64,000 nucleotides of DNA from Candidatus Dojkabacteria bacterium (GTDB taxonomy: Bacteria > Patescibacteriota > Dojkabacteria > B142 > JAFGFJ01). Under the pieces are notes generated by a model. It was given only the letters and a program-made list of their open reading frames with translations. It was not told where the DNA came from and searched no databases. The position numbers and the translations under genes are program-made. The stretch lies in the NCBI GenBank assembly GCA_016931155.1, contig JAFGFJ010000006.1, forward strand, positions 314,896 to 378,895, given 5' to 3'. Numbering within the stretch: position 1 is the stretch's first letter; each line of letters begins with the position of its first letter. Below are positions 24,027-56,149 of this stretch, one piece after another.

Positions 24027-25316
24027 ATGAATCTAAATAGAACCAAATTAACATATGTAATACTTGGTTTAATTCTTCTATTTTCTTTTGTAACGAGAAT
24101 ATACAGAGTATGGATTCCTGCTGAGTACTATTTTGACGAGGTTTATCATGCTGTTACAGCAAAACTTTATGCCAGGAATGATCCTTCCGGGTATGAATGG
24201 TGGCATGATGAGCCAGAACCTGGTACTGCGGTTGAATGGCTACATCCCCCGATTGCAAAACTTACACAAGCTTTAGGAATAATTCTTATAGGTGAGAACA
24301 GTCTCGGGTGGAGAATATCTTCAGTTGTATTTGGAGTTGGCGTTGTTATGGCGACTTTTCTTGTTGCTAATAAACTTTCAAAATCAAGAAAAGTCGCCCT
24401 TTTGTCTGCAATTCTACTAAGTCTTGATGGTCTTGTTTTTGTCCAGTCACGTATAGCAATGAATGATATCCATGTTACTTTTTTTATTCTAATGAGTGTC
24501 TTTTTTTATTCAAAATGGAAAGACTCTCAAGAGAAACAGTTGAATCTTGTTTTGAGTGGTGTATTTACAGGCATAGCGATTGCTACAAAATGGAGTGGTG
24601 TGTTTCTGCTTGGGATATTTATTATTGATCAACTTCTTACATGGATGCCTCGAATGATCTCGAGAAAGAAGTTCCCATCTTTTGCTTTGCTCTCCAATTT
24701 ATTCATTAATTTTATTTTTCTGCCTGTGTTGATATATGTATTATCTTTTTCACAGTTTTTCCTTCAAGGGCATAGCTGGAAACAATTTGAAGGACTTCAC
24801 AGTCAAATATGGCATTATCAGACGAGTCTTGAAGCAACTCATCCTCGTCAATCAAGTCCAATTGAGTGGGTGTTGGATCTGAAGCCAGTCTGGATGTATG
24901 TGAATTATGATTCAGGAGATAAGGTTGGGAATATATATAATTTGGGTAATCCACTTATCTTTTTTGGAGGACTTATTGGTATTTTGGGGATAGTTTATAC
25001 AATTATTCGAACAAAAAACAGGAATTATATTTTGCTCGTTTTAGCATATTTGATCGTCTGGTTGCCATGGATGTTTTCTCCCAGAATAATGTTTTTCTAC
25101 CATTATTTACCCGCAGTACCTTTTCTGACAATAATACTTTCAATTTTCCTTATGTCTATGATAAATGCCAAGTCAAGATTGATAAAGTATTTGGCGTATC
25201 TATTCCTCTTTGCGTGTGCTATATGGTTTTTTCTTTTTTATCCATATTTAACAGGTCTTCCAGTCTCAAAAGAGTTTGTTTCAAAGGTTTACTATATCCT
25301 GCCGGGCTGGAAATAA
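24027..25316 (+). CDS. Polytopic membrane glycosyltransferase, family 39-like (PMT / ArnT-like, phospholipid-carrier-dependent)
   Basis: YFDEVYHAVTA ... HPPIAKLTQALG first-loop motifs of the PMT/ArnT superfamily; ~11 predicted TM helices. Confidence 0.7.
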   Translation: MNLNRTKLTYVILGLILLFSFVTRIYRVWIPAEYYFDEVYHAVTAKLYARNDPSGYEWWHDEPEPGTAVEWLHPPIAKLTQALGIILIGENSLGWRISSVVFGVGVVMATFLVANKLSKSRKVALLSAILLSLDGLVFVQSRIAMNDIHVTFFILMSVFFYSKWKDSQEKQLNLVLSGVFTGIAIATKWSGVFLLGIFIIDQLLTWMPRMISRKKFPSFALLSNLFINFIFLPVLIYVLSFSQFFLQGHSWKQFEGLHSQIWHYQTSLEATHPRQSSPIEWVLDLKPVWMYVNYDSGDKVGNIYNLGNPLIFFGGLIGILGIVYTIIRTKNRNYILLVLAYLIVWLPWMFSPRIMFFYHYLPAVPFLTIILSIFLMSMINAKSRLIKYLAYLFLFACAIWFFLFYPYLTGLPVSKEFVSKVYYILPGWK

Positions 25317-25399
25317 GTCTGCTGGAATTCCCTTAGTTTGCTCTTTATCCTTAGCTTCTCTATAATTTCATAGTAATTAGATCTGTTGTTCTACTGTCT

Positions 25400-26095
25400 A
25401 TGAAAAAAATTACGGTTATTATATTCGCTGGAATTGTCCTTCTAGGGCTTGCTGTTTGGTCACCATGGAACAGGCTGGATTTCTCTTGGCAAAGACTTCT
25501 GGGAATTGAAAAGCCGGAAGGTATGGCAGGGCTTACAGTCTATTCACTTGGGGGGAATATGGAGGTAAAAATAGATGGAGAGTTGAAGGGAGAAGTAAAT
25601 CTTGCCAATTCTCCTCTTGAAATACACGATGTTGTTCCTGGTGAGCATAAAATTGAGTTAATTAGAAAAGGTTCACAGGATAACATTTATGCCGAGTATT
25701 TTAAAAATTTAAATTTTGAGGGTAACATAAATTCAATACTAAGTTATGAGCTTGGACCAACAGAAGAGTATAGTTCGGGCTATGTATTTTATGCTGTATC
25801 CAAAGGGAATTATGATGCTCTTGCTAGTTTGTCTGTGGTATCAAGACCTGAGCAGGCAAAGATCTTTCTAGATGGAATAGATGTGGGAAATGCTCCTTTA
25901 AGAGATGTAAAAATTTCTCTCAATCAATTACATAGGCTCAGGTTTGAGAAGGAGGGATTTGAATCACTTGAATTTGAAATTTTACCAAAGGAACAGGCAG
26001 ATCGAGATAAGCTTAAAGATTATAGTCTGGCAGTTGAGGCTCGACTGTTTAAGCTTCCAATAAATATAGTAGAGGAAGTATCAAATGAGAAATGA
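25400..26095 (+). CDS. Secreted/anchored PEGA-domain protein (two PEGA-like repeats)
   Basis: N-terminal signal anchor; LTVYSLGGNMEVKIDGELKGEVNLANSPLE and SRPEQAKIFLDGIDVGNAPL resemble the PEGA beta-strand motif. Confidence 0.55.
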   Translation: MKKITVIIFAGIVLLGLAVWSPWNRLDFSWQRLLGIEKPEGMAGLTVYSLGGNMEVKIDGELKGEVNLANSPLEIHDVVPGEHKIELIRKGSQDNIYAEYFKNLNFEGNINSILSYELGPTEEYSSGYVFYAVSKGNYDALASLSVVSRPEQAKIFLDGIDVGNAPLRDVKISLNQLHRLRFEKEGFESLEFEILPKEQADRDKLKDYSLAVEARLFKLPINIVEEVSNEK

Positions 26096-29000
26096 AGCTA
26101 ATAAGCTAAAAAGTACGAGTAAATACCCAACCTCAATAATTGTTAAGGGTGTTGATACCATTGGTGTAGAGCTTGCAGGTTCACTTATTGAACAGGGGGG
26201 GTATGTAATTATGATAGACACCTACAATGAGGAATCTTTCGGGAAAATAAAACATCTGTTGGAAAAAGATCTGTTTACATTTGTTGATTTTTCAGCTCTT
26301 TCTCATCTGGAAGATGATTTGAGGAGATTGGATTATGTTTTTTTTCTGGGACATCAGGAGACTGACATCGAAAATGAAATTTCTACTCAAGAATTTCTCG
26401 AAGTATCAAATTACTTGAATGCGATTCTTGACCTTTCAACTAAATTTGAAGCTAAATTCTTATTAACAAATTCGATAAGAGCACATAGGAGACTGATAGG
26501 AGAGCAGGACGTTCATCTCAATTTTGATCTAGAAAAGACTAAAAAACACACGGTATATTCAGAAGTTGAAATTCAAAGATATGCAGAAAGTTTGGTGATG
26601 GAGTACTACGAGAAGGTTTCTTTGAATGTAAGAATTTTGAGAATGGGAGAAGTAATTGGTGAGGCTGTTGAGTTTAAAGAAAAGACTCCTCTTGGAAAGC
26701 TTATATTTGATGCAATATCAGGAAATGACCTAGAGATAACTGGTGATGGTCTTGATGAAGAGTATTATGTTCATTATCTTGATGCTGTTTACGGATTATT
26801 GAAGGGTGAATTTACTCCAAATACTAAGGGGAAGATTTTTTCGTTGGCAAATCAAGAGCCGGTTACTACATTATCTTTAGCGTATAAGGTTCAGGAATTA
26901 GAGCCAAAGGCTGGAGAAATAAAATTTGTAGAAAAAAAAGGTCCACTGTCACTCAAACTATACAAGCCAGCTGAAAACCTGGCAGTTATCGGCTGGAGGC
27001 CAAAAGTATCTTTTGACAGAGCCCTGTCACAGTCTATTGAACAAGCATATAACCACTTTAGTATCGAATCTTCTAGTCAGGTGGAAGATGTAAGGGATGA
27101 AAAAAAGAATGATGTGCTTTCCAAAAAACTTAAAAACTTCTTTTTTATCTCAGACAATAACGGAGAAAAGGAGGATACATATAAGCCAAAAGGAGAAGGC
27201 TATGGTGCTCTTTCGAGACTTATTGCAGAAAGAAAATCTCAGGAAATGGGAAGAAAAGGTAGCATTGTTCTGGCAAATGACAAACTAAGAGAAAAGGTCA
27301 AGGGTCAAAATCAGAAACCTGCTATTCAAAGATTGGGTACTAAAGCAAATAAGTTTTATGACAGAATTAAGGTTCAGTTTAATTTCCTTACTAGATTGAC
27401 TCTTAGTGAATTTGCTCTCTATTTGTTTCTTGTAATGATTTTGGCAGTGGTATATTTCGGAGTAGTATCTCCATTACTTAGTCTTGGTAAAGATGTGTAT
27501 TTTGGGAACAGAAATCTTGAAGAAGCAAAAAATAGATTTATTAGTAATGACATAATTGGTGCTAGGGAATCTGCCAAGAGTTCTCTCAATAACTTTGATG
27601 CTGCAGAGAAAACACTAAACAGATTTGAAGCATTTTTTAATCTTGTTTCCCAGAAAGAAGTATTCATTTCAGGGACTACTCTCCTGAGAGGAGCAAAAAT
27701 GTACTCTGAAGGTCTTGAACAATCATTCTCAGCTGTCTCTCCAGCGTACGAGTATTTCGAGAAGTTTGAAGATAATGTCTATTACAGACCGAATGACGGG
27801 AATCTTCTTGTTTCTGAGTCCAGTGCCGATTATTCAGAGTATCTTCAGAAGATGTCAGGAATGGAGATAGTAGCAGATGATGGGATCAGCAAAATAGTAT
27901 CAGCAACAGCTCTTATGTCAACTGCAAGAAAGAACTATTTACCTAAAACAGTAATAGAAAAAATAAATTCTATTGTAAATAATATTGATGAGACTGAGGC
28001 TGAGCTTCAAAGTGCAAAAAAAACGATTAGATATTTACCTGATCTACTGGGAGGAGATGGCCCAAAATCTTACATTATTATTCTCCAGGATAACTCAAGA
28101 TATAACCCTTCAGGAGGCAAAATCAATTCATATGCTTTCTTAACATTTGAAAAAGGTGGTTTAAAATCTATTAAGGTTGAAAATGCATCCAGCCTAAACC
28201 TGTCATTTGATAGGTTGAATCCAAAAACACTTGACCAGATCAATCTGATTTCGTTTCAGAATCTAAAAGTAGAGGACGTAACTCTCAGTGATTTTCAGCT
28301 CATAAATGATTTTGATCTGTTTAGCAGTGAAATTATTCCTTACCTTGAAAATTATTTTGAGAGGGATATTGATGGCGCCATATTTTTAAATATTAACAGT
28401 CTTGAAAAATTAATTGAATTGTATGGCGGAATTGAAGTCGAGCAAATTGAATTTGACGGGAAAAATCTTCTGATGAATGTTGATCTGGTTCTAAGAGACA
28501 ATAGGGAGGAAAATAGAAGAACAGAGATTATTACTCAGGTATTTGCGCTTGTGCTTCAGAAAATATTCACTTCAACAGGAGAAAAAACGCTGGAACTTGC
28601 TTCTCTTTCAAATGTTCAGCTGGAAGTAAAGGATATGATGCTTCAGTTCGAGGGTGAATATTATCAGGAGCAGATTGAAACAAATAATTGGAATGGGAGG
28701 TTTAACAACAACTCAGATTTTATTAAGATTGCAGTGGTTTCAAAGGCAAGGGAATTTTCTCAAACAAAATATCCTAACTTAAATATTGATATAAATGATA
28801 GGTTGAAGTCTGACTTAACAACTGTTAAACAAGTTACAATTGAACCTAAAAGTCTTGAAGATCTTGATTATGTGACTGTATGCCTTCCTGCTGGAGCTAC
28901 AGAATTAAATTTTGGTGAAATTAATCCTTTACTGTACAACCAGAATTTTAGTGCTGGAAATGAGTGTGTGAGTATAAAATTTGGTCAAATAAGCAGGGCT

Positions 29001-29234
29001 GTGATATCATACAAGACCCCAGCTTTTGAAAGTGTAAGGGGCAATAGTTACAATTACAACGTAAGTATCCAAAATACTCCTGGACTCAATCTGATTTATG
29101 ATTATGAGTTGGAATTTGATCCGGGTTTGTACCCTCTTGAGTATGACGATAGAGGATTCCTCCAAAGAGATAAGCTGATATATGCAGGTACTCTTGATGG
29201 AAATTTAATTTTGAATTTAAAATTCGGAAGATGA
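26085..29234 (+). CDS. 1049-aa bitopic membrane protein: N-terminal degenerate NAD-dependent epimerase/dehydratase-like (Rossmann) domain, one TM helix (~aa 440-470), large C-terminal exported domain of unknown function
   Basis: IVKGVDTIGVELAGSLIEQGGYVIMID replaces the GxxGxxG motif; YSEVE replaces the catalytic YxxxK; GDGLDEEYYVHYLDAV replaces GDGxQxRDFxYVDD; TM segment FALYLFLVMILAVVYFGVVSPLLSL. Confidence 0.5.
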   Translation: MRNEANKLKSTSKYPTSIIVKGVDTIGVELAGSLIEQGGYVIMIDTYNEESFGKIKHLLEKDLFTFVDFSALSHLEDDLRRLDYVFFLGHQETDIENEISTQEFLEVSNYLNAILDLSTKFEAKFLLTNSIRAHRRLIGEQDVHLNFDLEKTKKHTVYSEVEIQRYAESLVMEYYEKVSLNVRILRMGEVIGEAVEFKEKTPLGKLIFDAISGNDLEITGDGLDEEYYVHYLDAVYGLLKGEFTPNTKGKIFSLANQEPVTTLSLAYKVQELEPKAGEIKFVEKKGPLSLKLYKPAENLAVIGWRPKVSFDRALSQSIEQAYNHFSIESSSQVEDVRDEKKNDVLSKKLKNFFFISDNNGEKEDTYKPKGEGYGALSRLIAERKSQEMGRKGSIVLANDKLREKVKGQNQKPAIQRLGTKANKFYDRIKVQFNFLTRLTLSEFALYLFLVMILAVVYFGVVSPLLSLGKDVYFGNRNLEEAKNRFISNDIIGARESAKSSLNNFDAAEKTLNRFEAFFNLVSQKEVFISGTTLLRGAKMYSEGLEQSFSAVSPAYEYFEKFEDNVYYRPNDGNLLVSESSADYSEYLQKMSGMEIVADDGISKIVSATALMSTARKNYLPKTVIEKINSIVNNIDETEAELQSAKKTIRYLPDLLGGDGPKSYIIILQDNSRYNPSGGKINSYAFLTFEKGGLKSIKVENASSLNLSFDRLNPKTLDQINLISFQNLKVEDVTLSDFQLINDFDLFSSEIIPYLENYFERDIDGAIFLNINSLEKLIELYGGIEVEQIEFDGKNLLMNVDLVLRDNREENRRTEIITQVFALVLQKIFTSTGEKTLELASLSNVQLEVKDMMLQFEGEYYQEQIETNNWNGRFNNNSDFIKIAVVSKAREFSQTKYPNLNIDINDRLKSDLTTVKQVTIEPKSLEDLDYVTVCLPAGATELNFGEINPLLYNQNFSAGNECVSIKFGQISRAVISYKTPAFESVRGNSYNYNVSIQNTPGLNLIYDYELEFDPGLYPLEYDDRGFLQRDKLIYAGTLDGNLILNLKFGR

Positions 29235-29695
29235 AACATAAGACTGTAATAACGAAAGAAGGTTTAAAGGATTTGAAAAATGAGCTTGATACCAGGAAGG
29301 ATAAGTTGAAAGAGATTGCTGATAAAATTGATGAGGCACGTCAGCAGGGAGACCTTTCTGAGAATGCTGCTTATACTACGGCTCTTTCAGAGAAAGAAAT
29401 GAATGAGGCGAAAATTAAGGAACTGGAAGATAAAATAAGTGGCTCGATAGTAGTTGAAGCTGATCCTTTAAATCCAGAAGTTGAACTTGGCGAGAAGGTT
29501 CTGGTGCGGCGGAGTTCTGATAACAAAAGGTTAACATATGAAATTGTTGGGATTGAAGAATCCAATCCGAGTGAAGGGAAAATATCTATAGGCTCTCCTA
29601 TTGGCAAGGCTTTGGCACATAAGAAGAAGGGAGATAAAGTAAAAGTTAAACTGCCATCTGGAGAGGAGGAGTTTTTAATTGAGGAAATTGCATAA
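29231..29695 (+). CDS. greA: Transcription elongation factor GreA
   Basis: ITKEGLKDLKNELD...QQGDLSENAAYTTA coiled-coil plus FKBP-like C-terminal domain. Confidence 0.88.
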   Translation: MKHKTVITKEGLKDLKNELDTRKDKLKEIADKIDEARQQGDLSENAAYTTALSEKEMNEAKIKELEDKISGSIVVEADPLNPEVELGEKVLVRRSSDNKRLTYEIVGIEESNPSEGKISIGSPIGKALAHKKKGDKVKVKLPSGEEEFLIEEIA

Positions 29696-29715: not shown

Positions 29716-30981
29716 ATGGAAAGACATTCAGTGCCCCAAAATATTATGGATGTCGAGTTCAAGCTTTTTGGAAGCCTGACCGTAAGACAGTTCGCTAACC
29801 TTGCAGGATCTATTGTCGTTGCGGTTATTTTATATTTTTTTAATATTCCCGGAATTATCAAATGGCCAGCAATCGTCGGTTTTGTTTTCTTGGGCATAAG
29901 TTTGGCACTGGTTAAGATAAATGGTCAAACATTTGGTACTTGGCTTGGCAATTTTCTGGCTTCTATGTTTAGTTCCCAGAGGAAAATATGGAAGAAAGAT
30001 CCGAAAGTTCCTGAGATACTTACAAAGACTTACCGTCCACGAGTAAGTAATGAACAGCTTGTTTCTGCGAAGAAAAAAGAGTTACCTCCTTTTCTACGTG
30101 AGGATATAATTCAATCTACAAACGTAGTAGATGAAGAGGAGGAAGAGCGGCTAAAGAAATTAGAAAAATACATTCTTGGTGGTACCTCTTCAACGATAAG
30201 TGAGCAATTAATTTCAGACGAAGAAAAAGCACAACGACCGGTAATAATTGATCCTTCAGATCAAAATCTTGCTGGCACAATGAATACGGCAAATGAGGAT
30301 AATTATTCTATAAATCAGTCGGACGAATTCGCAGTAATTGGAAAGAAGATGGCTAATCAGAGAGAGCGACCGATAAGCTCAAGACTTGTGCATAAGAACC
30401 TTGCGGAAAACATAGGAATTGCTGTAAGTGAAGATACTAAAGAGTCCGGTTTGGGCAAGGAAAAAGAAAAAAAGTCAGAAATAGGTTATCTTTCTGAGAA
30501 ACCTGTTAATGATATGAACAGAGGATTAGATGTGAAAAGGAGTTCTTCCGACGAATTGATAGAGGCTAATAAAATACTGCAGGAAAGGATACAGGAACTT
30601 ACAGAAAAAGCGAAAAAATCTCCTGATGACTCTCAGATAGCTCAAAAACTTGCAGAGATGGAAAAACGTCTGGTGGAAATTCAGTCGGGAGGTTCGTTCG
30701 CTAATGAAAAAATAGTATCTCAAAAACCAAATGTTATTAGTGGTATAGTAACTGATAAAGAAAATAAATTACTTCCTGATGTTAGGGTGTTGATTAAGGA
30801 CAGAAGGGGTTTTTTGGTTAGATCACTGATTACTGATAAGCAAGGTTACTTTGTTACGACAACTTCACTTCCTGACGGCGATTATTTAGTTGAATTTGAA
30901 AGCGATAGACATCCTTTTGACCAGTATAAAGTTAACCTGAACGGGTCTTTGAAAGATACGTATAAATTTACTGCCAGATGA
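29716..30981 (+). CDS. VirB3/PrgI-like membrane protein fused to a long linker and a C-terminal carboxypeptidase-regulatory-like beta-sandwich domain
   Basis: N-terminus VEFKLFGSLTVRQFANLAGSIVVAVILYFF plus a second TM, as in the PrgI family; C-terminus ISGIVTDKENKLLPDVRVLIKDRRGFLVRSLITDKQGYFVTTTSLPDGDYLVEFE resembles a CarbopepD_reg/Big-like fold. Confidence 0.55.
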   Translation: MERHSVPQNIMDVEFKLFGSLTVRQFANLAGSIVVAVILYFFNIPGIIKWPAIVGFVFLGISLALVKINGQTFGTWLGNFLASMFSSQRKIWKKDPKVPEILTKTYRPRVSNEQLVSAKKKELPPFLREDIIQSTNVVDEEEEERLKKLEKYILGGTSSTISEQLISDEEKAQRPVIIDPSDQNLAGTMNTANEDNYSINQSDEFAVIGKKMANQRERPISSRLVHKNLAENIGIAVSEDTKESGLGKEKEKKSEIGYLSEKPVNDMNRGLDVKRSSSDELIEANKILQERIQELTEKAKKSPDDSQIAQKLAEMEKRLVEIQSGGSFANEKIVSQKPNVISGIVTDKENKLLPDVRVLIKDRRGFLVRSLITDKQGYFVTTTSLPDGDYLVEFESDRHPFDQYKVNLNGSLKDTYKFTAR

Positions 30982-31000: not shown

Positions 31001-31684
31001 ATGGCGTTTTTAGGAAGAAAAGAAACAACAACTCAGGAACATCTTGATATTGAGGATGTCAGAGATGATCTTGTTGTGTTAAAAAATGGTAACGTTTCTC
31101 TTGTTATGGAGACGACTTCTTTGAACTTTGATCTTCTTTCGGAAGAGGAACAGGATATACGAATTCTTGCCTTTGCAGGGCTTATGAACTCATTGAATTT
31201 CCCTGTACAGATAGTTGTTAGAACAGAAAGAACAGACGTAACTGATTATGTAGATAAGCTAAAGATCTATAAGGAAAAACAGATTTCGTTGGCCTTAAAA
31301 AGACAAATAGAGATTTACATGCAATTTATTAAGAATCTTACTGTGAACACCGAGGTTCTTGATAAAAGATTCTTTGTTGTTATACCAGGAATAATATCAA
31401 GTATACAAAGAACTAGTGCTGTGAGACAGATCTTCGGTAAACCAGTAAAAATTAAAAATATCGAGGAGGTGCTTGAAAAAGCCAAATTACTTCTTTATCC
31501 AAAACGTGATCATCTGCTGAAGCAGTTTCAAAAAATGGGGATAATTGCAGAGCAACTAAAAACTGATGATTTAATACGTTTGTATTACGGTATTTATCAA
31601 CCGGATACTCCTGGAATTAAGAAATTAATTTTGAAAAAACAGGATTTTTCTACTGGGATTGTAGAAACTTTAAAAGAAGAATAA
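31001..31684 (+). CDS. Possible N-terminal fragment of a VirB4/TraE-like conjugation ATPase (separate ORF, different frame from the ATPase body)
   Basis: LDIEDVRDDLVVLKNGNVSLVMETTSLNFDLLSEEEQDIRILAFAGLMNSL resembles the conserved N-terminus of Gram-positive VirB4 homologues; ends 4 nt before the next ORF. Confidence 0.4.
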   Translation: MAFLGRKETTTQEHLDIEDVRDDLVVLKNGNVSLVMETTSLNFDLLSEEEQDIRILAFAGLMNSLNFPVQIVVRTERTDVTDYVDKLKIYKEKQISLALKRQIEIYMQFIKNLTVNTEVLDKRFFVVIPGIISSIQRTSAVRQIFGKPVKIKNIEEVLEKAKLLLYPKRDHLLKQFQKMGIIAEQLKTDDLIRLYYGIYQPDTPGIKKLILKKQDFSTGIVETLKEE

Positions 31685-31688
31685 CAAT

Positions 31689-33635
31689 ATGTGGATATTT
31701 GGAAAAAGCAAAAAAGAAAAGGAAAAAGAGAAGGAACAGACAAGTCAGTCAGAGGATCTTGAAGAGAAGGCAATTGAAAAATTCGCTGAGGGATTGATTG
31801 ATGTAAAAGATCTGATAGCTCCGTCAGCGATGGAGGTGGATTTTAACGATGTTCTTGTAGGAAATAAGTACTTTAGAACTTTCCTTGCTACTGGATTTCC
31901 AAGCCATGTCGGACCAAATTGGCTTTCTCCACTTATCAATTTTGACTTTCCTGTAGATATAAGCACGTTTTATTATCCTGTGGATAGTTCAATGATAATG
32001 CAAAGACTCAAACGAAAGATTGGAGAAATGGAGGCAACAATCAGTCTTGATCTTGAAGCAGGAAAAGTGGTTGATCCATATGTTAAGGTTGCACTTGAAG
32101 ATGCAAAGAATTTACAGGAACAAATAGCAAAAGGTACAGAGAAATTTTTTCACTTTGCTCTTTATGTAACTATTCGAGCAGGCAGTATCAGGGAGCTTGA
32201 AAAAATCTCGAAGAATCTTATTTCAACAATGTCTTCTATTAGTGTGATTCTAAAGGTGGCTACTTTGCAGCAGGAACAAGGTTTTCAGAGTGTTGTACCT
32301 GTAGGAATAGACAAGATCTATATGACCAGAAATATGGATACGACCTCTTTGGCGACCACATTCCCATTCGTTAGCTCAGAGCTTACTATGGATACTGGTA
32401 TTTTGTACGGAATAAATAAACACAATAGAAGTCTTGTGATTTTTGACAGGTTTGAACTTGAAAATGCTAATGCAGTTGTTTTTGCAACTTCCGGGGCGGG
32501 AAAAAGTTATATGGTAAAGCTTGAGGCTATGAGAAGTCTTATGTTCGGGACTGAAATACTGATAATTGATCCCGAAAGAGAATATGAGAAGCTAACGAAA
32601 ACAATTGGAGGAGAATACGTATCGTTTTCGCAAGATGGCGCGCAAAAATTGAATCCATTTGAGCTTTCAGGAATTTATGACAAAGATGAAGACGAGCTAA
32701 GAATGAAAATTCTATCACTTCACGGCCTTATGAGGATTATGATGGGTGGAGATTTTTCTCCGGAAGAATCTGCAATACTTGATAGGGCACTTATTTTGAC
32801 GTATAAAGAAAAAGGCATTACGGTTGATCCTGTCACACACAAAAAAGAACCACCTCTTCTTGAGGATTTATATAAGATTCTCCAGGCAATGGCAGAGCCT
32901 CAAGCTCATAATCTTGCGACAAGACTTGAGAGGTTTGTAAGAGGAAGTGCAGCTGGTATTTTTGACAGAAAATCAAATATTGAGATTAAGAATACATTTA
33001 CTGTTTTTAGTATTCGAGAGTTGAGTGATGACCTAAGGCCTATAGCAATGTATATGATGCTTGATTTTATTTGGACAAGAGTGAAAAGACTTCGAAAGAA
33101 AAGACTTCTAATAGTGGATGAGGCATGGTGGATGATGCAGTATCCAGATGCAGCAAAATTTATCCACTCAATGGCAAAAAGAGCCAGAAAGTACGGTCTT
33201 GGGCTTACTACAATTACTCAAGATGTTGAGGACTTTTTGAGTACGGATTACGGGAAAGCTGTTGTTACAAATTCATCAATACAAATATTAATGAAGCAAA
33301 GTCCTGTAGCTATAGATAAGATTCAGAAGATATTCTATTTGTCTCAAGGTGAGAAGAACTATCTACTTTCAGCAGGTATTGGGGAAGGTCTATTCTTTGC
33401 CGGATCAAATCATGTGGCAATTCAGGTAATTGCGAGTGAAAATGAGCATAATCTAATAACTACATCTTATAAAGATATGGAGAAAGAGGAGAAGAAAAAA
33501 GCGGCATTGGCAGAAGAAGCTGTAAAAAATGCCGGAATTGGTATTGCAGATATTCCTGAAAATACAAACCAGCAAGTTTCCCCTACTGATAATATTAATT
33601 CCTATACTGGTAATACTTCTTCCAATGCGGTATAA
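31689..33635 (+). CDS. VirB4/TrbE/PrgJ-like type IV secretion ATPase (AAA_10 domain)
   Basis: Walker A FATSGAGKSY, Walker B LLIVDEAWWMM; upstream region IAPSAMEVDFNDVLVGNKYFRTFLATGFPSHVGPNWLSPLI matches the VirB4 family motif. Confidence 0.7.
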   Translation: MWIFGKSKKEKEKEKEQTSQSEDLEEKAIEKFAEGLIDVKDLIAPSAMEVDFNDVLVGNKYFRTFLATGFPSHVGPNWLSPLINFDFPVDISTFYYPVDSSMIMQRLKRKIGEMEATISLDLEAGKVVDPYVKVALEDAKNLQEQIAKGTEKFFHFALYVTIRAGSIRELEKISKNLISTMSSISVILKVATLQQEQGFQSVVPVGIDKIYMTRNMDTTSLATTFPFVSSELTMDTGILYGINKHNRSLVIFDRFELENANAVVFATSGAGKSYMVKLEAMRSLMFGTEILIIDPEREYEKLTKTIGGEYVSFSQDGAQKLNPFELSGIYDKDEDELRMKILSLHGLMRIMMGGDFSPEESAILDRALILTYKEKGITVDPVTHKKEPPLLEDLYKILQAMAEPQAHNLATRLERFVRGSAAGIFDRKSNIEIKNTFTVFSIRELSDDLRPIAMYMMLDFIWTRVKRLRKKRLLIVDEAWWMMQYPDAAKFIHSMAKRARKYGLGLTTITQDVEDFLSTDYGKAVVTNSSIQILMKQSPVAIDKIQKIFYLSQGEKNYLLSAGIGEGLFFAGSNHVAIQVIASENEHNLITTSYKDMEKEEKKKAALAEEAVKNAGIGIADIPENTNQQVSPTDNINSYTGNTSSNAV

Positions 33636-33643
33636 ATAAAAAG

Positions 33644-34204
33644 ATGTTTCCACTAGATATTTTTACAAAACAATTCAACCTGAGTGGGCTAGTACTTATA
33701 GCCTCTGTTGCTATTTTTTCTTTGGCAGTAATTATTCTTTTGGTGAATGTTGTTATATTAAACAGGAAGCTAAAAAAAGCTACTACACCGACGTATGGTT
33801 TTGCAGGAAAGCCAATATATCCCATTATTGCAACATTGCTAATATCTGTATCTATACCTCTAGCTGTATATTCTTTATCTCAGGAGACTACTTTTGAACA
33901 AAAAGCAGAAGAAAATGTGATTCTACAGAGTAGTCATTATGTGGTATCAAGAGATGGGGAGAATTTACGGCTTGAGTTTAATGTTGTTCCATATGTAGAT
34001 GGGGTAGCTTGGGGAGAAAAGTCGTTTGATATTTTCTGGTCATTTAAGGGAAAAACATCCAAAACTAGCTATGAGTTTAATAAATCTGCGATTAATCCCA
34101 GTAAAATGACAATTACTTTGCCAAAAGGTGAGTATGATCTTACTATTCTTGTTACTTATGAGAATAGATCTCAGAGGTTAGAACAAAAGCTTGTTCTAAA
34201 ATAA
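33644..34204 (+). CDS. Small two-TM membrane protein with beta-rich C-terminal domain, cotranscribed with the VirB4-like gene
   Basis: Two hydrophobic helices (LVLIASVAIFSLAVIILLVNVVIL; IYPIIATLLISVSIPLAVYSL); starts 9 nt after the VirB4-like stop. Confidence 0.45.
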   Translation: MFPLDIFTKQFNLSGLVLIASVAIFSLAVIILLVNVVILNRKLKKATTPTYGFAGKPIYPIIATLLISVSIPLAVYSLSQETTFEQKAEENVILQSSHYVVSRDGENLRLEFNVVPYVDGVAWGEKSFDIFWSFKGKTSKTSYEFNKSAINPSKMTITLPKGEYDLTILVTYENRSQRLEQKLVLK

Positions 34205-34223: not shown

Positions 34224-34229
34224 TAATTA
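34224..34229 (+). promoter_or_regulatory. -10 box (TATAAT, with upstream TGn-like tgtgcgtgc) for rnpB
   Basis: gctataatta immediately 5' of the P1 helix of the RNase P RNA. Confidence 0.5.
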
Positions 34230-34234
34230 TTTCG

Positions 34235-34627
34235 GTCTAGTCAGAACGGTCGCTAAGCGTGAGCTTAGAGGAAAGTCCGAACTCCTCTTGGCACAATAGT
34301 CAGGACAAGGTACCTTGGAGACAAGGCAGGGAGTGATCTCTGGGATTAGAGCAACAGAAAGTAAGGAGCCTGCGAATTGCAGGCGATCTTGAAAGGGTGC
34401 CTCCGGGTTTTTCTGGGGGGCGTACATGAAATTTCATGTATGACGTGTAAGAGACCACCGGTCACGATAGTAATATCGAGATGCTGGTAATCCCTATCGG
34501 GAGCAAGATCAAAGTGTAGATCGCAAAGTGTTTGTTCTTTTGATTAATCAGAACAAATACTGCTAGAGAAATGACCGTCATTCTGGTGTTGCCAGAAAGA
34601 ACAGAATTCGGCTTATTGACTAGACCA
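34235..34627 (+). ncRNA. rnpB: RNase P RNA, bacterial type A-like
   Basis: Universal motifs read in sequence: AGAGGAAAGUCCGAACUCC (P4 5' strand), GUAAGAGACCACC, ACAGAAUUCGGCUUAUUGACUAGACC (P4 3' strand plus P1); the 5' GGUCUAGUCAG pairs with the 3' UUGACUAGACC to form P1; no ORF of significance. Confidence 0.88.
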
Positions 34628-34734
34628 TTTTTTCAACCACTTCAGGAGTATTTCCATTTGGGTGCATAATACTTCCTGTATAGAAACCATTATTTCTTGA
34701 AAATTTCAATTTACAGTGGGAACACATAGATACA

Positions 34735-54019: not shown

Positions 54020-54094
54020 TTGGAGCGGGCAACGGGAATCGAACCCGTATCATCAGTTTGGAAAACTGACATAATAACCTTTATACGATGCCCG
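54020..54094 (-). tRNA. tRNA-Gly (anticodon UCC) with encoded CCA
   Basis: Reverse complement folds as a cloverleaf: acceptor GCGGGCA/UGCCCGC, T-arm ACGGG-UUCGAUU-CCCGU, anticodon stem UCAGU/ACUGA with loop UUUCCAA, discriminator U then CCA. Confidence 0.75.
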
Positions 54095-54240
54095 CACAAA
54101 ACACGCAATTGTAGCAGATCAGTCTCCTTTTTGTGAAGCAATGGACCAGGAATTGTGTTAATGGTCGGGTACGGCTGAAACTTTATCGTGTCCTGTTTTC
54201 TGCTAGTTTTCATCTATTGCAATATTGGGATTACTTAGTA

Positions 54241-54320
54241 TGAGTAGCTATCTCCGAAGCACTTCAAGTCTCTGTGCATGAGTAGCTCTTCCCGCAGCAC
54301 TTCAAATTCCTGTCGTAAGT
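54241..54320. repeat. Imperfect tandem duplication (~38 nt x2, ~80% identity) spanning the stop codon and 3' end of the 424-aa ORF
   Basis: tgagtagctatctccgaagcacttcaagtctctgtgca followed by tgagtagctcttcccgcagcacttcaaattcctgtcgt. Confidence 0.7.
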
Positions 54321-55538
54321 AGACGGGTCACCGTTCTTTACGTATTTTAAGACCTTTCCGCAGATGTCACATCTCACCGGGTCGGGTCTGTCAGGGGTTG
54401 GTTGAGGTTCAAACCCCGGATTCAATATCGAGTTTACTCTTCCGAATGTGCTGAACTTTTCCGATATACCGCAGGCGCTCATCACATAACCTTCTTGTCT
54501 CATAAGTCTGGCTTGAGCATATCTATCCATTTTTTGAAAATCTGAGAAACCTCCATCTTGATCGTAATTAATCCCTGTTTCTAGCTTCATTACATCATGT
54601 ATATATTTTCTAAATCCGAACTGCAGGACTGCCATTGTTTCATTGATGAAGGAAAGTTCTTTAGAAATATTTTCCCCTTTATTCAATTTTGCGGCCGTCG
54701 CCGTAATCAATGTTCTAAATTCCTCCCTGACTCTTTCCCAAACAAACGTCTTTGCATAAGCCTCAATTAATCTAATTTTCATTTCTTCGAGACCTTTTGT
54801 TCTTTGTTCTATAAAATCGGTTATGATTCTGAGTTTGTTGTCATCAAAGAAGCCTGATGATGCCATTATGCTTAAATCTGAAAGATTATTGCTGTCTGTA
54901 TTAATTGCCAATTCATTCAGTAGTTCCTCATAATCAAGAGTCGAAGTTGCGGGTAGCCATTTTTGTATAACTTTCTCGGTACCATTTTCATTTATAAATA
55001 AAAAGATGGTGTCGTTCCCCAGATAACCTCTTTTTTTTGCTTCTTCGGTAAGTGGCGGGCTTGGGCTGAATTCTACAAAATTTCTTTTATCTCCCATCTG
55101 TCTTGCTCTTCTGAGTTTTTCATAATTGCTCAGATTTATTGTGTTTCTTAAGATTTCAAATTCAGGAATTTGCCCGCTCGCATTATTTATTGCTTCTCTA
55201 TAGATTTCGTCAAGTGTTCTGTTTCCTGTTGCGAGCTTCCACGGTAAATTGCTCTTATCCCAAGGGAGGCTGTATTCATATATTGCAGTAGTTTCTGCGA
55301 TGGGATGCTCAACGATCTGGGTGTATATGTCGGTAAGGCTTTCTGTCAATGCAATGTTCAACAATGCCTCCCTTTCCTCTCCTCCAGCAGATTGGATAGC
55401 TTTTAGAGCCTGAAGTACATAGTTTATTGAGTTTGAGTATCTGTTTGAATACTGCGCCCTGATAGAATCCATACTTAAATCTGCTTTATTGATCGCAAAT
55501 CTCGACGGTTGTATTTCCTGTATGGCTGTTTCGCTCAT
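54264..55538 (-). CDS. Hypothetical protein with C-terminal Cys cluster (CDICGK...CCGKSYSC)
   Basis: Long ORF with coding-like composition; no recognisable family. Confidence 0.4.
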   Translation of the reverse strand: MSETAIQEIQPSRFAINKADLSMDSIRAQYSNRYSNSINYVLQALKAIQSAGGEEREALLNIALTESLTDIYTQIVEHPIAETTAIYEYSLPWDKSNLPWKLATGNRTLDEIYREAINNASGQIPEFEILRNTINLSNYEKLRRARQMGDKRNFVEFSPSPPLTEEAKKRGYLGNDTIFLFINENGTEKVIQKWLPATSTLDYEELLNELAINTDSNNLSDLSIMASSGFFDDNKLRIITDFIEQRTKGLEEMKIRLIEAYAKTFVWERVREEFRTLITATAAKLNKGENISKELSFINETMAVLQFGFRKYIHDVMKLETGINYDQDGGFSDFQKMDRYAQARLMRQEGYVMSACGISEKFSTFGRVNSILNPGFEPQPTPDRPDPVRCDICGKVLKYVKNGDPSTYDRNLKCCGKSYSCTET

Positions 55539-56149
55539 TTCATTTCAGAAACGAGCAGTGTTGAAGAATTAATTTTCATGGCTTTCTGCTCGGAAAGATA
55601 AAATAATCTTGGCTGGTTTTCTGGCTTTTCCAGTGATGGAATTACAGTTGCGGCACAGCAGCGGTATTTCACCGCTTTTCCCATTTAATCCCGAAAAGAG
55701 AACCTGAAATATACTAGAGTAAAAATTATAATTTTGCAAGAAGTGTAGGTCTGATGTATTTGATGTACAACTTCAAGACCTATGTAGCAACTGAGACTCT
55801 ACGGGCTGTACAGGTTCATGAACATATGCAACAGCCATAGTAGAATACGTTGATGTTTCAAATTATTAATGATTCAAACAAAACGGTTGTTGTATAACGA
55901 GTTTAATCTTTAATATGTTTCATCACACGATAGAGAAGGCGAGTAAAATCAGCTTATTTTTTTCATTAACTGTAGAGACTCTTACAGAGAGCCAAGGATA
56001 AACTAGATGCTTGTTATGTATTATATGTAAGACAAGCAAACTCTCAATGAAGGAAGTAGTAGAGACCACGGCTAAGTTTTGCTCATCATTATTGTTGATC
56101 TTTTGCCAAATGAATTGTACTCTGTATTAGTCAGATTCCTGCCCTAATT

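What the first reader, a model, noticed from the sequence alone, without database searches (positions are those of the whole stretch)
31001..33635. VirB4-like ATPase apparently split into two ORFs in different frames
The 227-aa ORF (frame 2) resembles the N-terminal region of Gram-positive VirB4 homologues. It ends 4 nt before a 648-aa ORF (frame 0) that carries the remainder (IAP...GFP...GPNWLSPLI, Walker A/B). The combined length (~875 aa) matches a full-length VirB4. The ORFs are not in the same frame (31001 and 31689 differ mod 3), so a simple read-through is excluded. This could be a genuine split gene with two interacting polypeptides, a frameshift pseudogene, a programmed frameshift, or a sequencing or assembly indel in a homopolymer (aaaaaagcaaaaaagaaaagg around 31700).
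Basis: partly seen in the sequence, partly recalled or inferred. Interest (0 to 1): 0.55.

Follow-up and report, generated by a model that had tools for sequence, protein, structure and literature searches.

The report
TrsD-like gene plus VirB4 ATPase gene
[quoted passage not shown] It is not a broken or frameshifted gene, and the arrangement is already described in the literature.

Summary
ORF1 (31001-31684, 227 aa) ends with TAA. Four bases later ORF2 (31689-33635, 648 aa) starts in the +1 frame.

The split is not an error, a pseudogene or a programmed frameshift:
- In 78 of 78 related species genomes the two parts are separate ORFs, with relative frames +1 (37), +2 (33) and 0 (8).
- 72 of the 78 junctions lie between -40 and +25 nt.
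- An independent assembly gives the same sequence.

The same two-gene layout occurs in Firmicutes plasmids, including TraD/TraE of a pSK41-like S. aureus plasmid, a C. botulinum plasmid and a Pontibacillus plasmid. A rare natural fusion of 787 aa also exists.

NCBIfam (TrsD/TraD), Pfam (TraC-like, PF26593) and Quinonero-Coronel et al. 2025 (PMC12102498) already describe TrsD next to VirB4 across Patescibacteria. The finding is already known and of low interest.

The parts
29716..30981 (+). PrgI-family (VirB3-like) membrane protein, 421 aa. It has the PrgI domain at aa 6-90, a long charged middle region and a C-terminal CarboxypepD_reg-like beta-sandwich (aa 341-398).
   Evidence: Pfam PrgI E 2.5e-10, 41.2 bits, above the cutoff of 27. 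A PrgI-like gene lies directly upstream of the ORF1 homologue in 61 of 78 related loci. The gene order PrgI, small TraC-like gene, ATPase is also seen in C. botulinum pCBG and in the fused CPR locus L088.
31001..31684 (+). TrsD/TraD-like ('TraC-like', PF26593) protein, 227 aa. It is the free-standing counterpart of the first ~180 residues of the VirB4 N-terminal domain. The folded core is aa ~13-200 and the C-terminal tail is variable.
31674..31691 (+). Junction: the ORF2 frame opens at 31674, the ORF1 stop TAA is at 31682-31684, the spacer is CAAT, and the ORF2 ATG is at 31689-31691.
   Evidence: There is no homopolymer or slippery run in the 8-nt window where a +1 shift could fuse the frames. 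Related loci have junctions mostly between -40 and +25 nt in all three frames.
31689..33635 (+). VirB4-type T4SS ATPase (CD1110 / MPF_FATA-like), 648 aa, lacking the extreme N-terminal subdomain. It has a non-conserved Lys/Glu-rich head (aa 1-~30), the remaining N-terminal domain (~30-250) and the P-loop ATPase domain (~257-590).
   Evidence: NCBIfam conju_CD1110 scores 392 bits, above the cutoff of 325, covering model positions 178-734 of 752. VirB4_plasma is covered at 279-893 of 894. Pfam P-loop_TraG E 5.5e-26. PDB 4ag5, the VirB4 C-terminal domain, matches at E 8.6e-47. Walker A is at nt 32484-32507 and Walker B at nt 33105-33122.
33644..34204 (+). 186-aa protein with one N-terminal hydrophobic helix (aa 13-34), co-oriented and starting 8 nt after the VirB4 stop. 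It is a possible accessory subunit; its membership of the system is uncertain.
   Evidence: It has no family hit. A homologue lies just downstream of VirB4 in 23 of 80 related loci.

Best explanation
This is a two-gene version of VirB4 in the chromosomal type IV secretion module (PrgI/VirB3-like, TrsD-like, VirB4) of a Candidatus Dojkabacteria (Patescibacteria/CPR) genome.

Shown: ORF1 encodes a separate, conserved polypeptide that is homologous to the extreme N-terminal subdomain of VirB4. This is the family that NCBI calls TrsD/TraD and Pfam calls TraC-like. ORF2 encodes the rest of VirB4, namely the remaining N-terminal domain plus the P-loop ATPase. The two genes are adjacent and on the same strand, and are probably co-transcribed. 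Each is translated from its own start codon. Complementary homology, conserved adjacency and the existence of a natural fusion are all shown.

Inferred: the two polypeptides associate non-covalently to rebuild a complete VirB4 N-terminal domain. By analogy with R388, where VirB3 wraps around the VirB4 N-terminal domain (PMC9259494), the TrsD-like piece would link the ATPase hexamer to the PrgI/VirB3-like membrane protein encoded just upstream. The tight stop-start spacing (4 nt here, mostly overlapping in relatives) suggests coupled translation that keeps the two products in balance.
For: 1. Complementary mapping. ORF2 covers CD1110 model positions 178-734 of 752, VirB4_plasma 279-893 and TIGR00929 238-724. 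ORF1 covers VirB4_plasma 103-233. ORF1-family members cover CD1110 2-178, VirB4_plasma up to 280 and TIGR00929 4-153.

2. Family-level homology. Of 57 diverse members, 57 hit VirB4_plasma, 56 hit TrsD, 29 hit CD1110, 11 hit TIGR00929 and 13 hit Pfam TraC_F_IV.

4. Conservation as two genes. All 78 loci from different species with enough downstream DNA have two ORFs, with relative frames 1:37, 2:33 and 0:8. The median ORF1 length is 225 aa. There are 2,956 cluster representatives at E<=1e-3. Among the best 150, many carry long low-complexity tails after the domain and only one is fused to the ATPase.

5. A natural fusion, P0223 (787 aa), occurs on 3 contigs from at least 2 samples, with a PrgI gene upstream. 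It aligns to ORF1 at aa 7-209 and to ORF2 at aa 213-785.

6. The same split occurs in Firmicutes plasmids: S. aureus traD (227 aa) plus TraE (670 aa), C. botulinum PrgI plus 'TraC family protein' (257 aa) plus ATPase (620 aa), and Pontibacillus 274 aa plus 621 aa.

7. An independent Logan assembly is identical over 5,078 nt, including the junction.

8. Literature. PMC12102498 reports 2,272 TrsD homologues in Patescibacteria, 1,664 of them next to virB4. It notes remote homology to the VirB4 N-terminal portion and essentiality in Ca. S. epibionticum.
Against: - No direct evidence here that the two proteins bind each other. No complex prediction or co-evolution analysis was run.
- ORF1 by itself scores far below the curated cutoffs (26.6 bits against 200 for TrsD, and 25.5 against 590 for VirB4_plasma).
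- A shallow profile-profile comparison with one clade of CD1110 VirB4 gave only a weak local match. It was in the right place (ORF1 46-71 to VirB4 64-90) but at P 0.015.
- A profile of the family found nothing in PDB sequences.
- The literature assigns no function to TrsD.
- The genome barely uses Shine-Dalgarno sites (7 of 62 genes match even a loose motif), so translational coupling cannot be argued from the sequence.
Confidence: 0.9

Rival explanations
1. Sequencing or assembly indel: the real gene is one ~875-aa VirB4, and a 1-nt error creates the apparent split.
For: The region is A-rich, with several A5-A6 runs at 31634-31727.
Against: The flagged A-runs at 31703-31727 lie after the ORF1 stop. 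A fusing indel would have to fall within 8 nt (31674-31681, AAGAAGAA), which contains no homopolymer. An independent assembly of run SRR13394437 is identical over 5,078 nt. All 78 related genomes are also split, in all three relative frames, including 8 with an in-frame stop.
Confidence: 0.01
2. Frameshift pseudogene: a once-fused VirB4 was recently inactivated in this lineage.
For: Fused versions exist in a few Patescibacteria (P0223) and in many Firmicutes (804-aa B. cereus and 845-aa Spiroplasma proteins).
Against: Both halves are intact and conserved. The ORF1 family has 42-63% identity across 80 species loci with 30 invariant columns, and ORF2 has 59-75% identity. The split is shared by every related locus examined and by distant Firmicutes plasmids. 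The homologue is reported as essential in Ca. S. epibionticum.
Confidence: 0.01
3. Programmed +1 ribosomal frameshift produces a fused full-length VirB4 from the two frames.
For: ORF2 is in the +1 frame and only 4 nt separate the stop from the start.
Against: The frame relation is not conserved (+1 in 37 loci, +2 in 33, 0 in 8). The overlap window is only 8 nt and has no slippery or rare-codon motif. ORF2 has its own ATG in every locus. ORF1 C-terminal tails vary from a few to about 500 residues of low-complexity sequence, which does not fit a conserved recoding site.
Confidence: 0.01
4. ORF1 is an independent accessory protein (a TrsD-type paralogue of the VirB4 N-terminus) with its own role, such as an assembly factor, regulator or adaptor. 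On this reading it is not simply the missing piece that docks back onto ORF2.
For: The family evolves as its own protein. Many members carry long Pro/Gln/Thr-rich tails of up to ~500 aa. In Gracilibacteria, TrsD homologues are reported not to be associated with virB4. No function has been assigned.
Against: ORF2 and its relatives lack exactly the segment that ORF1 matches, so there is no duplicate copy of the domain in the ATPase. Adjacency is near-universal, and a natural fusion joins the two with a linker of only about 10 residues.
Confidence: 0.07

Closest known systems
TrsD/TraD plus TrsE/TraE of staphylococcal conjugative plasmids pGO1/pSK41 (MPF_FATA, pGO1 subclass; NCBIfam NF041427)
   Same: A small protein of about 227 aa sits directly upstream of a ~650-670-aa VirB4-type ATPase on the same strand. 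In the S. aureus plasmid, traD is 227 aa and TraE is 670 aa. The ORF1 family profile hits S. aureus TraD over nearly its whole length (31 bits, profile positions 8-200). ORF1 itself hits the TrsD model at E 4.6e-6, and pairwise BLASTP gives E 4e-5.
   Different: Identity is only about 26% over the N-terminal ~85 aa, and the score is far below the curated cutoff (26.6 against 200 bits). The locus here is chromosomal in a Patescibacteria genome, flanked by housekeeping genes, with no relaxase or coupling protein nearby in the stretches examined.
Patescibacteria T4SS as described by Quinonero-Coronel et al. 2025 (PMC12102498), and the essential T4SS of Ca. Southlakia epibionticum
   Same: The same component set and arrangement is present: a PrgI/VirB3 homologue, a TrsD homologue next to virB4, and VirB4 of the Patescibacteria clade related to MPF_FATA. 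It is chromosomal and lacks a relaxase.
   Different: Nothing substantive differs. This window is one more Dojkabacteria example. The exact break point (CD1110 model position ~178) and the rare natural fusion are small details not quoted from that paper.
Full-length VirB4 / TraC / TrwK (TIGR00929; CD1110 family; PDB 7o42, 8rtb)
   Same: ORF1 plus ORF2 together cover the full-length models collinearly. The ORF1 fold is closest to TrwK. The ORF2 ATPase domain matches PDB 4ag5.
   Different: There are two polypeptides instead of one. A Lys/Glu-rich head on ORF2 and a variable tail on ORF1 replace the short linker seen in fused forms.
C. botulinum pCBG-type and Pontibacillus plasmid T4SS loci
   Same: The gene order PrgI, small 'TraC family protein' (257 aa), ATPase (620 aa) is identical. 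In Pontibacillus a 274-aa protein is followed by a 621-aa CD1110 VirB4, with the best plasmid matches to both ORFs (29% and 37% identity).
   Different: These loci are plasmid-borne in Firmicutes and are presumably conjugative.

Membership tests
TrsD/TraD family conjugative transfer protein (NCBIfam NF041427) / Pfam PF26593 TraC-like | Sequence match to the family model | tested here: inconclusive
   ORF1 scores E 4.6e-6 and 26.6 bits against NF041427, covering model positions 11-148 of 201. This is far below the curated cutoff of 200 bits. Of 57 diverse relatives, 56 match at E<=0.01. The precomputed Pfam PF26593 'TraC-like' hit is listed for the exact protein but marked weak. ORF1 is therefore a homologue, not a member of the narrow staphylococcal subfamily.
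TrsD/TraD family conjugative transfer protein (NCBIfam NF041427) / Pfam PF26593 TraC-like | Small protein (~200-260 aa) without nucleotide-binding motifs, encoded immediately upstream of and co-oriented with a VirB4-type ATPase gene | tested here: met
   ORF1 is 227 aa and ends 4 nt before ORF2. The same adjacency is found in 78 of 78 related loci and in S. aureus, C. botulinum and Pontibacillus plasmids.
TrsD/TraD family conjugative transfer protein (NCBIfam NF041427) / Pfam PF26593 TraC-like | Remote homology to the N-terminal portion of VirB4 | tested here: met
VirB4 ATPase, CD1110 family (NCBIfam NF045971; MPF_FATA-like) | Score above the curated cutoff of the family model | tested here: met
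   ORF2 scores 392.1 bits against a cutoff of 325, E 4.8e-117.
VirB4 ATPase, CD1110 family (NCBIfam NF045971; MPF_FATA-like) | Walker A and Walker B motifs in a P-loop TraG/DUF87-type domain | tested here: met
   Walker A ATSGAGKS is at aa 266-273 and Walker B LLIVDE at aa 473-478. Pfam P-loop_TraG, AAA_10 and DUF87 all match. PDB 4ag5 matches at E 8.6e-47.
VirB4 ATPase, CD1110 family (NCBIfam NF045971; MPF_FATA-like) | Complete N-terminal domain within the same polypeptide (model positions 1-177) | tested here: not met
   ORF2 starts at model position 178 of 752. The missing segment is encoded by ORF1.
Programmed ribosomal frameshift gene | Conserved frame relation and a conserved slippery or shift-prone site in the overlap | tested here: not met
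   Relative frames are 1:37, 2:33 and 0:8 among 78 loci. The overlap window is 8 nt with no slippery motif.
Frameshift pseudogene | A lineage-specific disruption absent from close relatives, with signs of decay | tested here: not met
   The split is present in all 78 related loci. Both halves are intact and conserved.

The most novel reading that the evidence does not exclude
The detached TrsD-like subdomain may be more than a passive missing piece. As a separate polypeptide it could be loaded onto only a subset of VirB4 subunits. In R388 only the six 'central' VirB4 copies contact VirB3, which suggests how such a subset might arise. The variable low-complexity tails seen in many Patescibacteria relatives could then tune assembly or recruit partners in a T4SS repurposed for epibiotic life. 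This would give the 'no function assigned' TrsD family a specific stoichiometric or regulatory role.
Probability: 0.1. Interest if true: 0.45.

Novelty: already known. Interest (0 to 1): 0.12.

Why it matters
Little here is new. The result matters mainly for annotation. Adjacent VirB4-like ORFs in different frames in Patescibacteria and in many Firmicutes elements should be annotated as a TrsD/TraC-like gene plus virB4, not flagged as a frameshifted or broken gene.

There is one small added value. The break point is mapped precisely, at about position 178 of the CD1110 VirB4 model, and a natural fusion confirms that the two parts are equivalent to one VirB4. This gives a concrete starting hypothesis for the still uncharacterised TrsD family: that it forms the VirB3-facing tip of the VirB4 N-terminal domain.

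Tried and rejected
- ORF1 alone against Pfam gave only noise (DUF4928, CUT_C).
- ORF1 alone against PDB sequences gave one chance hit (3ck6, E 0.37).
- The family profile against PDB sequences gave nothing.
- hhalign of the ORF1 family against a shallow alignment of 60-94%-identical B. cereus-type CD1110 VirB4 gave only a weak local match at the expected place (P 0.015, probability 2.9%). It is not used as evidence. The NCBIfam models, which are more diverse, detected the relation.
- The main text of Guglielmini et al. 2014 (PMC4027160) does not contain the word TrsD. The statement about TrsD homology is therefore cited from PMC12102498 only.
- The E. mundtii Inc18 plasmid has a 217-aa ORF before a 524-aa VirB4, but that ORF does not match the ORF1 profile. 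It was not counted as another example.
- A Shine-Dalgarno argument for or against translational coupling was dropped, because only 7 of 62 genes in the window show even a loose SD motif.
- No complex prediction of ORF1 with ORF2 was attempted. The structure tool takes one chain and accepts only window or database sequences.
Full report
**Observation.** The window carries ORF1 at 31001-31684 (227 aa, stop TAA at 31682-31684) and ORF2 at 31689-33635 (648 aa), separated by the four bases CAAT. The starts are 688 nt apart, so ORF2 is in the +1 frame relative to ORF1. ORF2 has a Walker A motif (ATSGAGKS, aa 266-273) and a Walker B motif (LLIVDE, aa 473-478).

**Source and surroundings.** The exact ORF1 protein is on record as a hypothetical protein of a Candidatus Dojkabacteria (WS6, Patescibacteria/CPR) MAG. 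The window has 36.7% G+C. Upstream of the pair lie a GreA gene (29231-29695) and a 421-aa PrgI-family (VirB3-like) protein (29716-30981). Downstream lie a 186-aa protein with one hydrophobic helix, then RNase P RNA (34233-34631), a zinc peptidase and SecA. No relaxase or coupling protein gene was seen among the neighbours examined. This is a small chromosomal T4SS module set among housekeeping genes.

**What the two ORFs are.** ORF2 is a VirB4-type ATPase.
- It scores 392 bits on NCBIfam conju_CD1110 (cutoff 325), but covers only model positions 178-734 of 752.
- It covers 279-893 of 894 of the Mbov_0397 VirB4 model and 238-724 of 792 of TIGR00929.
- Its C-terminal half matches the solved VirB4 C-terminal domain 4ag5 (E 8.6e-47).

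So ORF2 consistently lacks the first ~180-280 positions of full-length VirB4 models.

ORF1 alone hits the same Mbov_0397 VirB4 model at positions 103-233 (E 2.5e-6) and the TrsD/TraD family model (E 4.6e-6). These are weak matches, so I tested the relation at family level. Of 57 diverse short relatives (32-52% identical to ORF1; alignment A2):
- 57 match VirB4_plasma (best E 4.6e-13);
- 56 match TrsD;
- 29 match the CD1110 VirB4 model (best E 2.5e-9);
- 11 match TIGR00929;
- 13 match Pfam TraC_F_IV, the N-terminal domain of TraC/VirB4.

Where these relatives match the CD1110 model, they cover positions 2-178 (for example P0254 at 18-178 and P0238 at 2-170). On the Mbov_0397 model they reach position 280. 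That is exactly the segment ORF2 lacks. The two ORFs are therefore complementary, collinear and non-overlapping pieces of one VirB4.

**Is the split real?** A scan of one genome per species returned 80 loci with an ORF1 relative (42-63% identity). In all 78 loci with enough downstream DNA, the ORF1 relative is followed by a separate ORF2 relative (59-75% identity).
- The relative frame is +1 in 37 loci, +2 in 33 and 0 in 8. In those 8 an in-frame stop separates the two genes.
- 72 of the 78 junctions lie between -40 and +25 nt. The commonest are a 1-nt overlap (19 loci) and an 8-nt overlap (10 loci).
- The median length of ORF1 relatives is 225 aa.
- A PrgI-like gene lies directly upstream in 61 loci.

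A library-wide profile search found 2,956 cluster representatives at E<=1e-3. Among the best 150, lengths run from 131 to 787 aa. Many carry long Pro/Gln/Thr/Ser-rich tails after the conserved domain, and only one (P0223) continues into an ATPase.

This pattern rules out three readings. A recent pseudogene is excluded because both halves are conserved and intact across species. A programmed frameshift is excluded because neither the frame relation nor any site is conserved. A sequencing error is excluded for three reasons.

**A natural fusion.** P0223 (787 aa) matches the ORF1 profile at aa 7-209 (195 bits) and ORF2 at aa 213-785 (59.6% identity). It is encoded on three contigs from at least two samples, downstream of a PrgI gene. 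In this protein only about ten residues link the two parts. That confirms that the two genes in the window together equal one VirB4. It also shows that the ORF1 tail and the Lys/Glu-rich head of ORF2 are dispensable linker remnants.

**The same layout outside Patescibacteria.** tblastn against plasmids found ORF1 relatives directly upstream of short VirB4 genes in several Firmicutes:
- Pontibacillus: 274 aa followed by a 621-aa CD1110 VirB4.
- C. botulinum pCBG: PrgI, a 'TraC family protein' of 257 aa, then an ATPase of 620 aa.
- A pSK41-like S. aureus plasmid: traD of 227 aa followed by a DUF87 protein (TraE) of 670 aa.

The ORF1 family profile scores 128.7, 42.7 and 31.2 bits on these three small proteins. 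Other Firmicutes and Mollicutes elements carry the fused form: 804 aa in B. cereus and 845 aa in Spiroplasma. In the Spiroplasma protein the ORF1 profile hits aa 104-222.

**Comparison with what is known.** The arrangement is already described. NCBIfam has a 'TrsD/TraD family conjugative transfer protein' model, and Pfam has PF26593 'TraC-like', which is precomputed on this very protein. Quinonero-Coronel et al. 2025 (PMC12102498) make the following statements:
- They found 2,272 homologues, of which 1,664 were associated with virB4.
- TrsD otherwise occurs only in the pGO1 subclass of MPF_FATA.
- The homologue in Ca. S. epibionticum is listed as essential.

The window is one more example of this. 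On strict membership, ORF2 passes the CD1110 VirB4 cutoff but lacks the model's first 177 positions. ORF1 is a clear homologue of TrsD/TraD but scores far below that model's curated cutoff. It belongs to the broader TraC-like/TrsD superfamily rather than to the staphylococcal subfamily.

**How it most likely works.** Homology, complementarity, conserved adjacency and the existence of a fusion are shown. The mechanism is inferred: the two polypeptides assemble non-covalently into a complete VirB4 N-terminal domain. [quoted passage not shown] The gene order PrgI(VirB3)-TrsD-VirB4 mirrors that N-to-C topology. The TrsD-like piece is therefore the likely interface between the membrane anchor and the ATPase. 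Tight or overlapping stop-start junctions suggest coupled translation. This genome hardly uses Shine-Dalgarno sites, so the sequence cannot settle that point. I did not test the interaction itself.

**Verdict.** The feature is ordinary for this lineage and already in the literature and the family databases. Its practical value is as an annotation caution. It also gives a precise break point (about CD1110 model position 178) for anyone studying the uncharacterised TrsD family.

Noticed in passing
window 29716-30981 (+): The PrgI/VirB3-like protein is unusually long, at 421 aa against roughly 90-130 aa for the PrgI genes in the plasmid loci fetched. It has a charged, Glu/Lys-rich middle region and a C-terminal CarboxypepD_reg-like beta-sandwich domain (aa 341-398, E 3.5e-7, just below the Pfam cutoff). 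The role of this extension is unknown.
   Followed up: partly
window 33644-34204 (+): A 186-aa protein with a single N-terminal hydrophobic helix starts 8 nt after the VirB4 stop. It has no family hit, but a homologue lies directly downstream of VirB4 in 23 of 80 related loci (27-36% identity among the hits listed). It may be a lineage-specific T4SS accessory subunit.
   Followed up: partly
P0126-P0267 (relatives of ORF1): Many Patescibacteria TrsD-like proteins carry C-terminal tails of 100-500 residues rich in Pro, Gln, Thr, Ser and Ala after the conserved ~200-aa domain. The window's protein has only a ~25-residue tail. The purpose of the tails is unexplained.
   Followed up: no
L088 4001-6364 and L089 877-3240: This is a natural fusion of the TrsD-like domain with VirB4 (787 aa) in another Patescibacteria lineage. 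It is followed by an 890-aa Peptidase_M23 protein and lies next to dnaN, and was seen on three contigs. Among the best 150 cluster representatives it is the only fused one.
   Followed up: partly
L017 5001-5567 (candidate division WS6 bacterium OLB20); L031; L041: Three related loci are atypical. In OLB20 the ORF1 relative is truncated (188 aa) with a 150-nt gap before VirB4. L031 has a 651-nt insertion between the two genes. L041 has a ~1,300-aa ORF2-frame product. These could be local errors, insertions or domain gains.
   Followed up: no
window 34233-34631 (+): A bacterial class A RNase P RNA gene (134 bits, full-length model match) lies immediately downstream of the T4SS module. The short minus-strand ORFs listed there (34227-34458) are artefacts of this RNA gene.
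   Followed up: yes
window 55594-55722 (-) and 54264-55538 (-): A cobalamin riboswitch (60 bits) lies upstream of a 424-aa minus-strand ORF. A tRNA gene is at 54024-54095 (-). These are unrelated to the finding.
   Followed up: no
window 26085-29234 (+): A 1,049-aa protein combines an N-terminal NAD-dependent epimerase-like region with a DUF4012 domain. It overlaps the GreA gene start by 4 nt. A PMT-family glycosyltransferase and a PEGA-domain protein lie just upstream (24027-26095).
   Followed up: no
whole window (62 predicted gene starts): Only 7 of 62 gene starts have even a loose Shine-Dalgarno-like motif within 25 nt upstream. Upstream regions are A/T-rich instead, which suggests largely SD-independent initiation in this genome.
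   Followed up: partly
L086 2435-4680 (E. mundtii Inc18 plasmid pPe16101): A 217-aa hypothetical ORF precedes a shortened 524-aa CD1110 VirB4 after a PrgI gene. The 217-aa ORF does not match the TrsD-like profile. This may be a different split or a genuine disruption.
   Followed up: no
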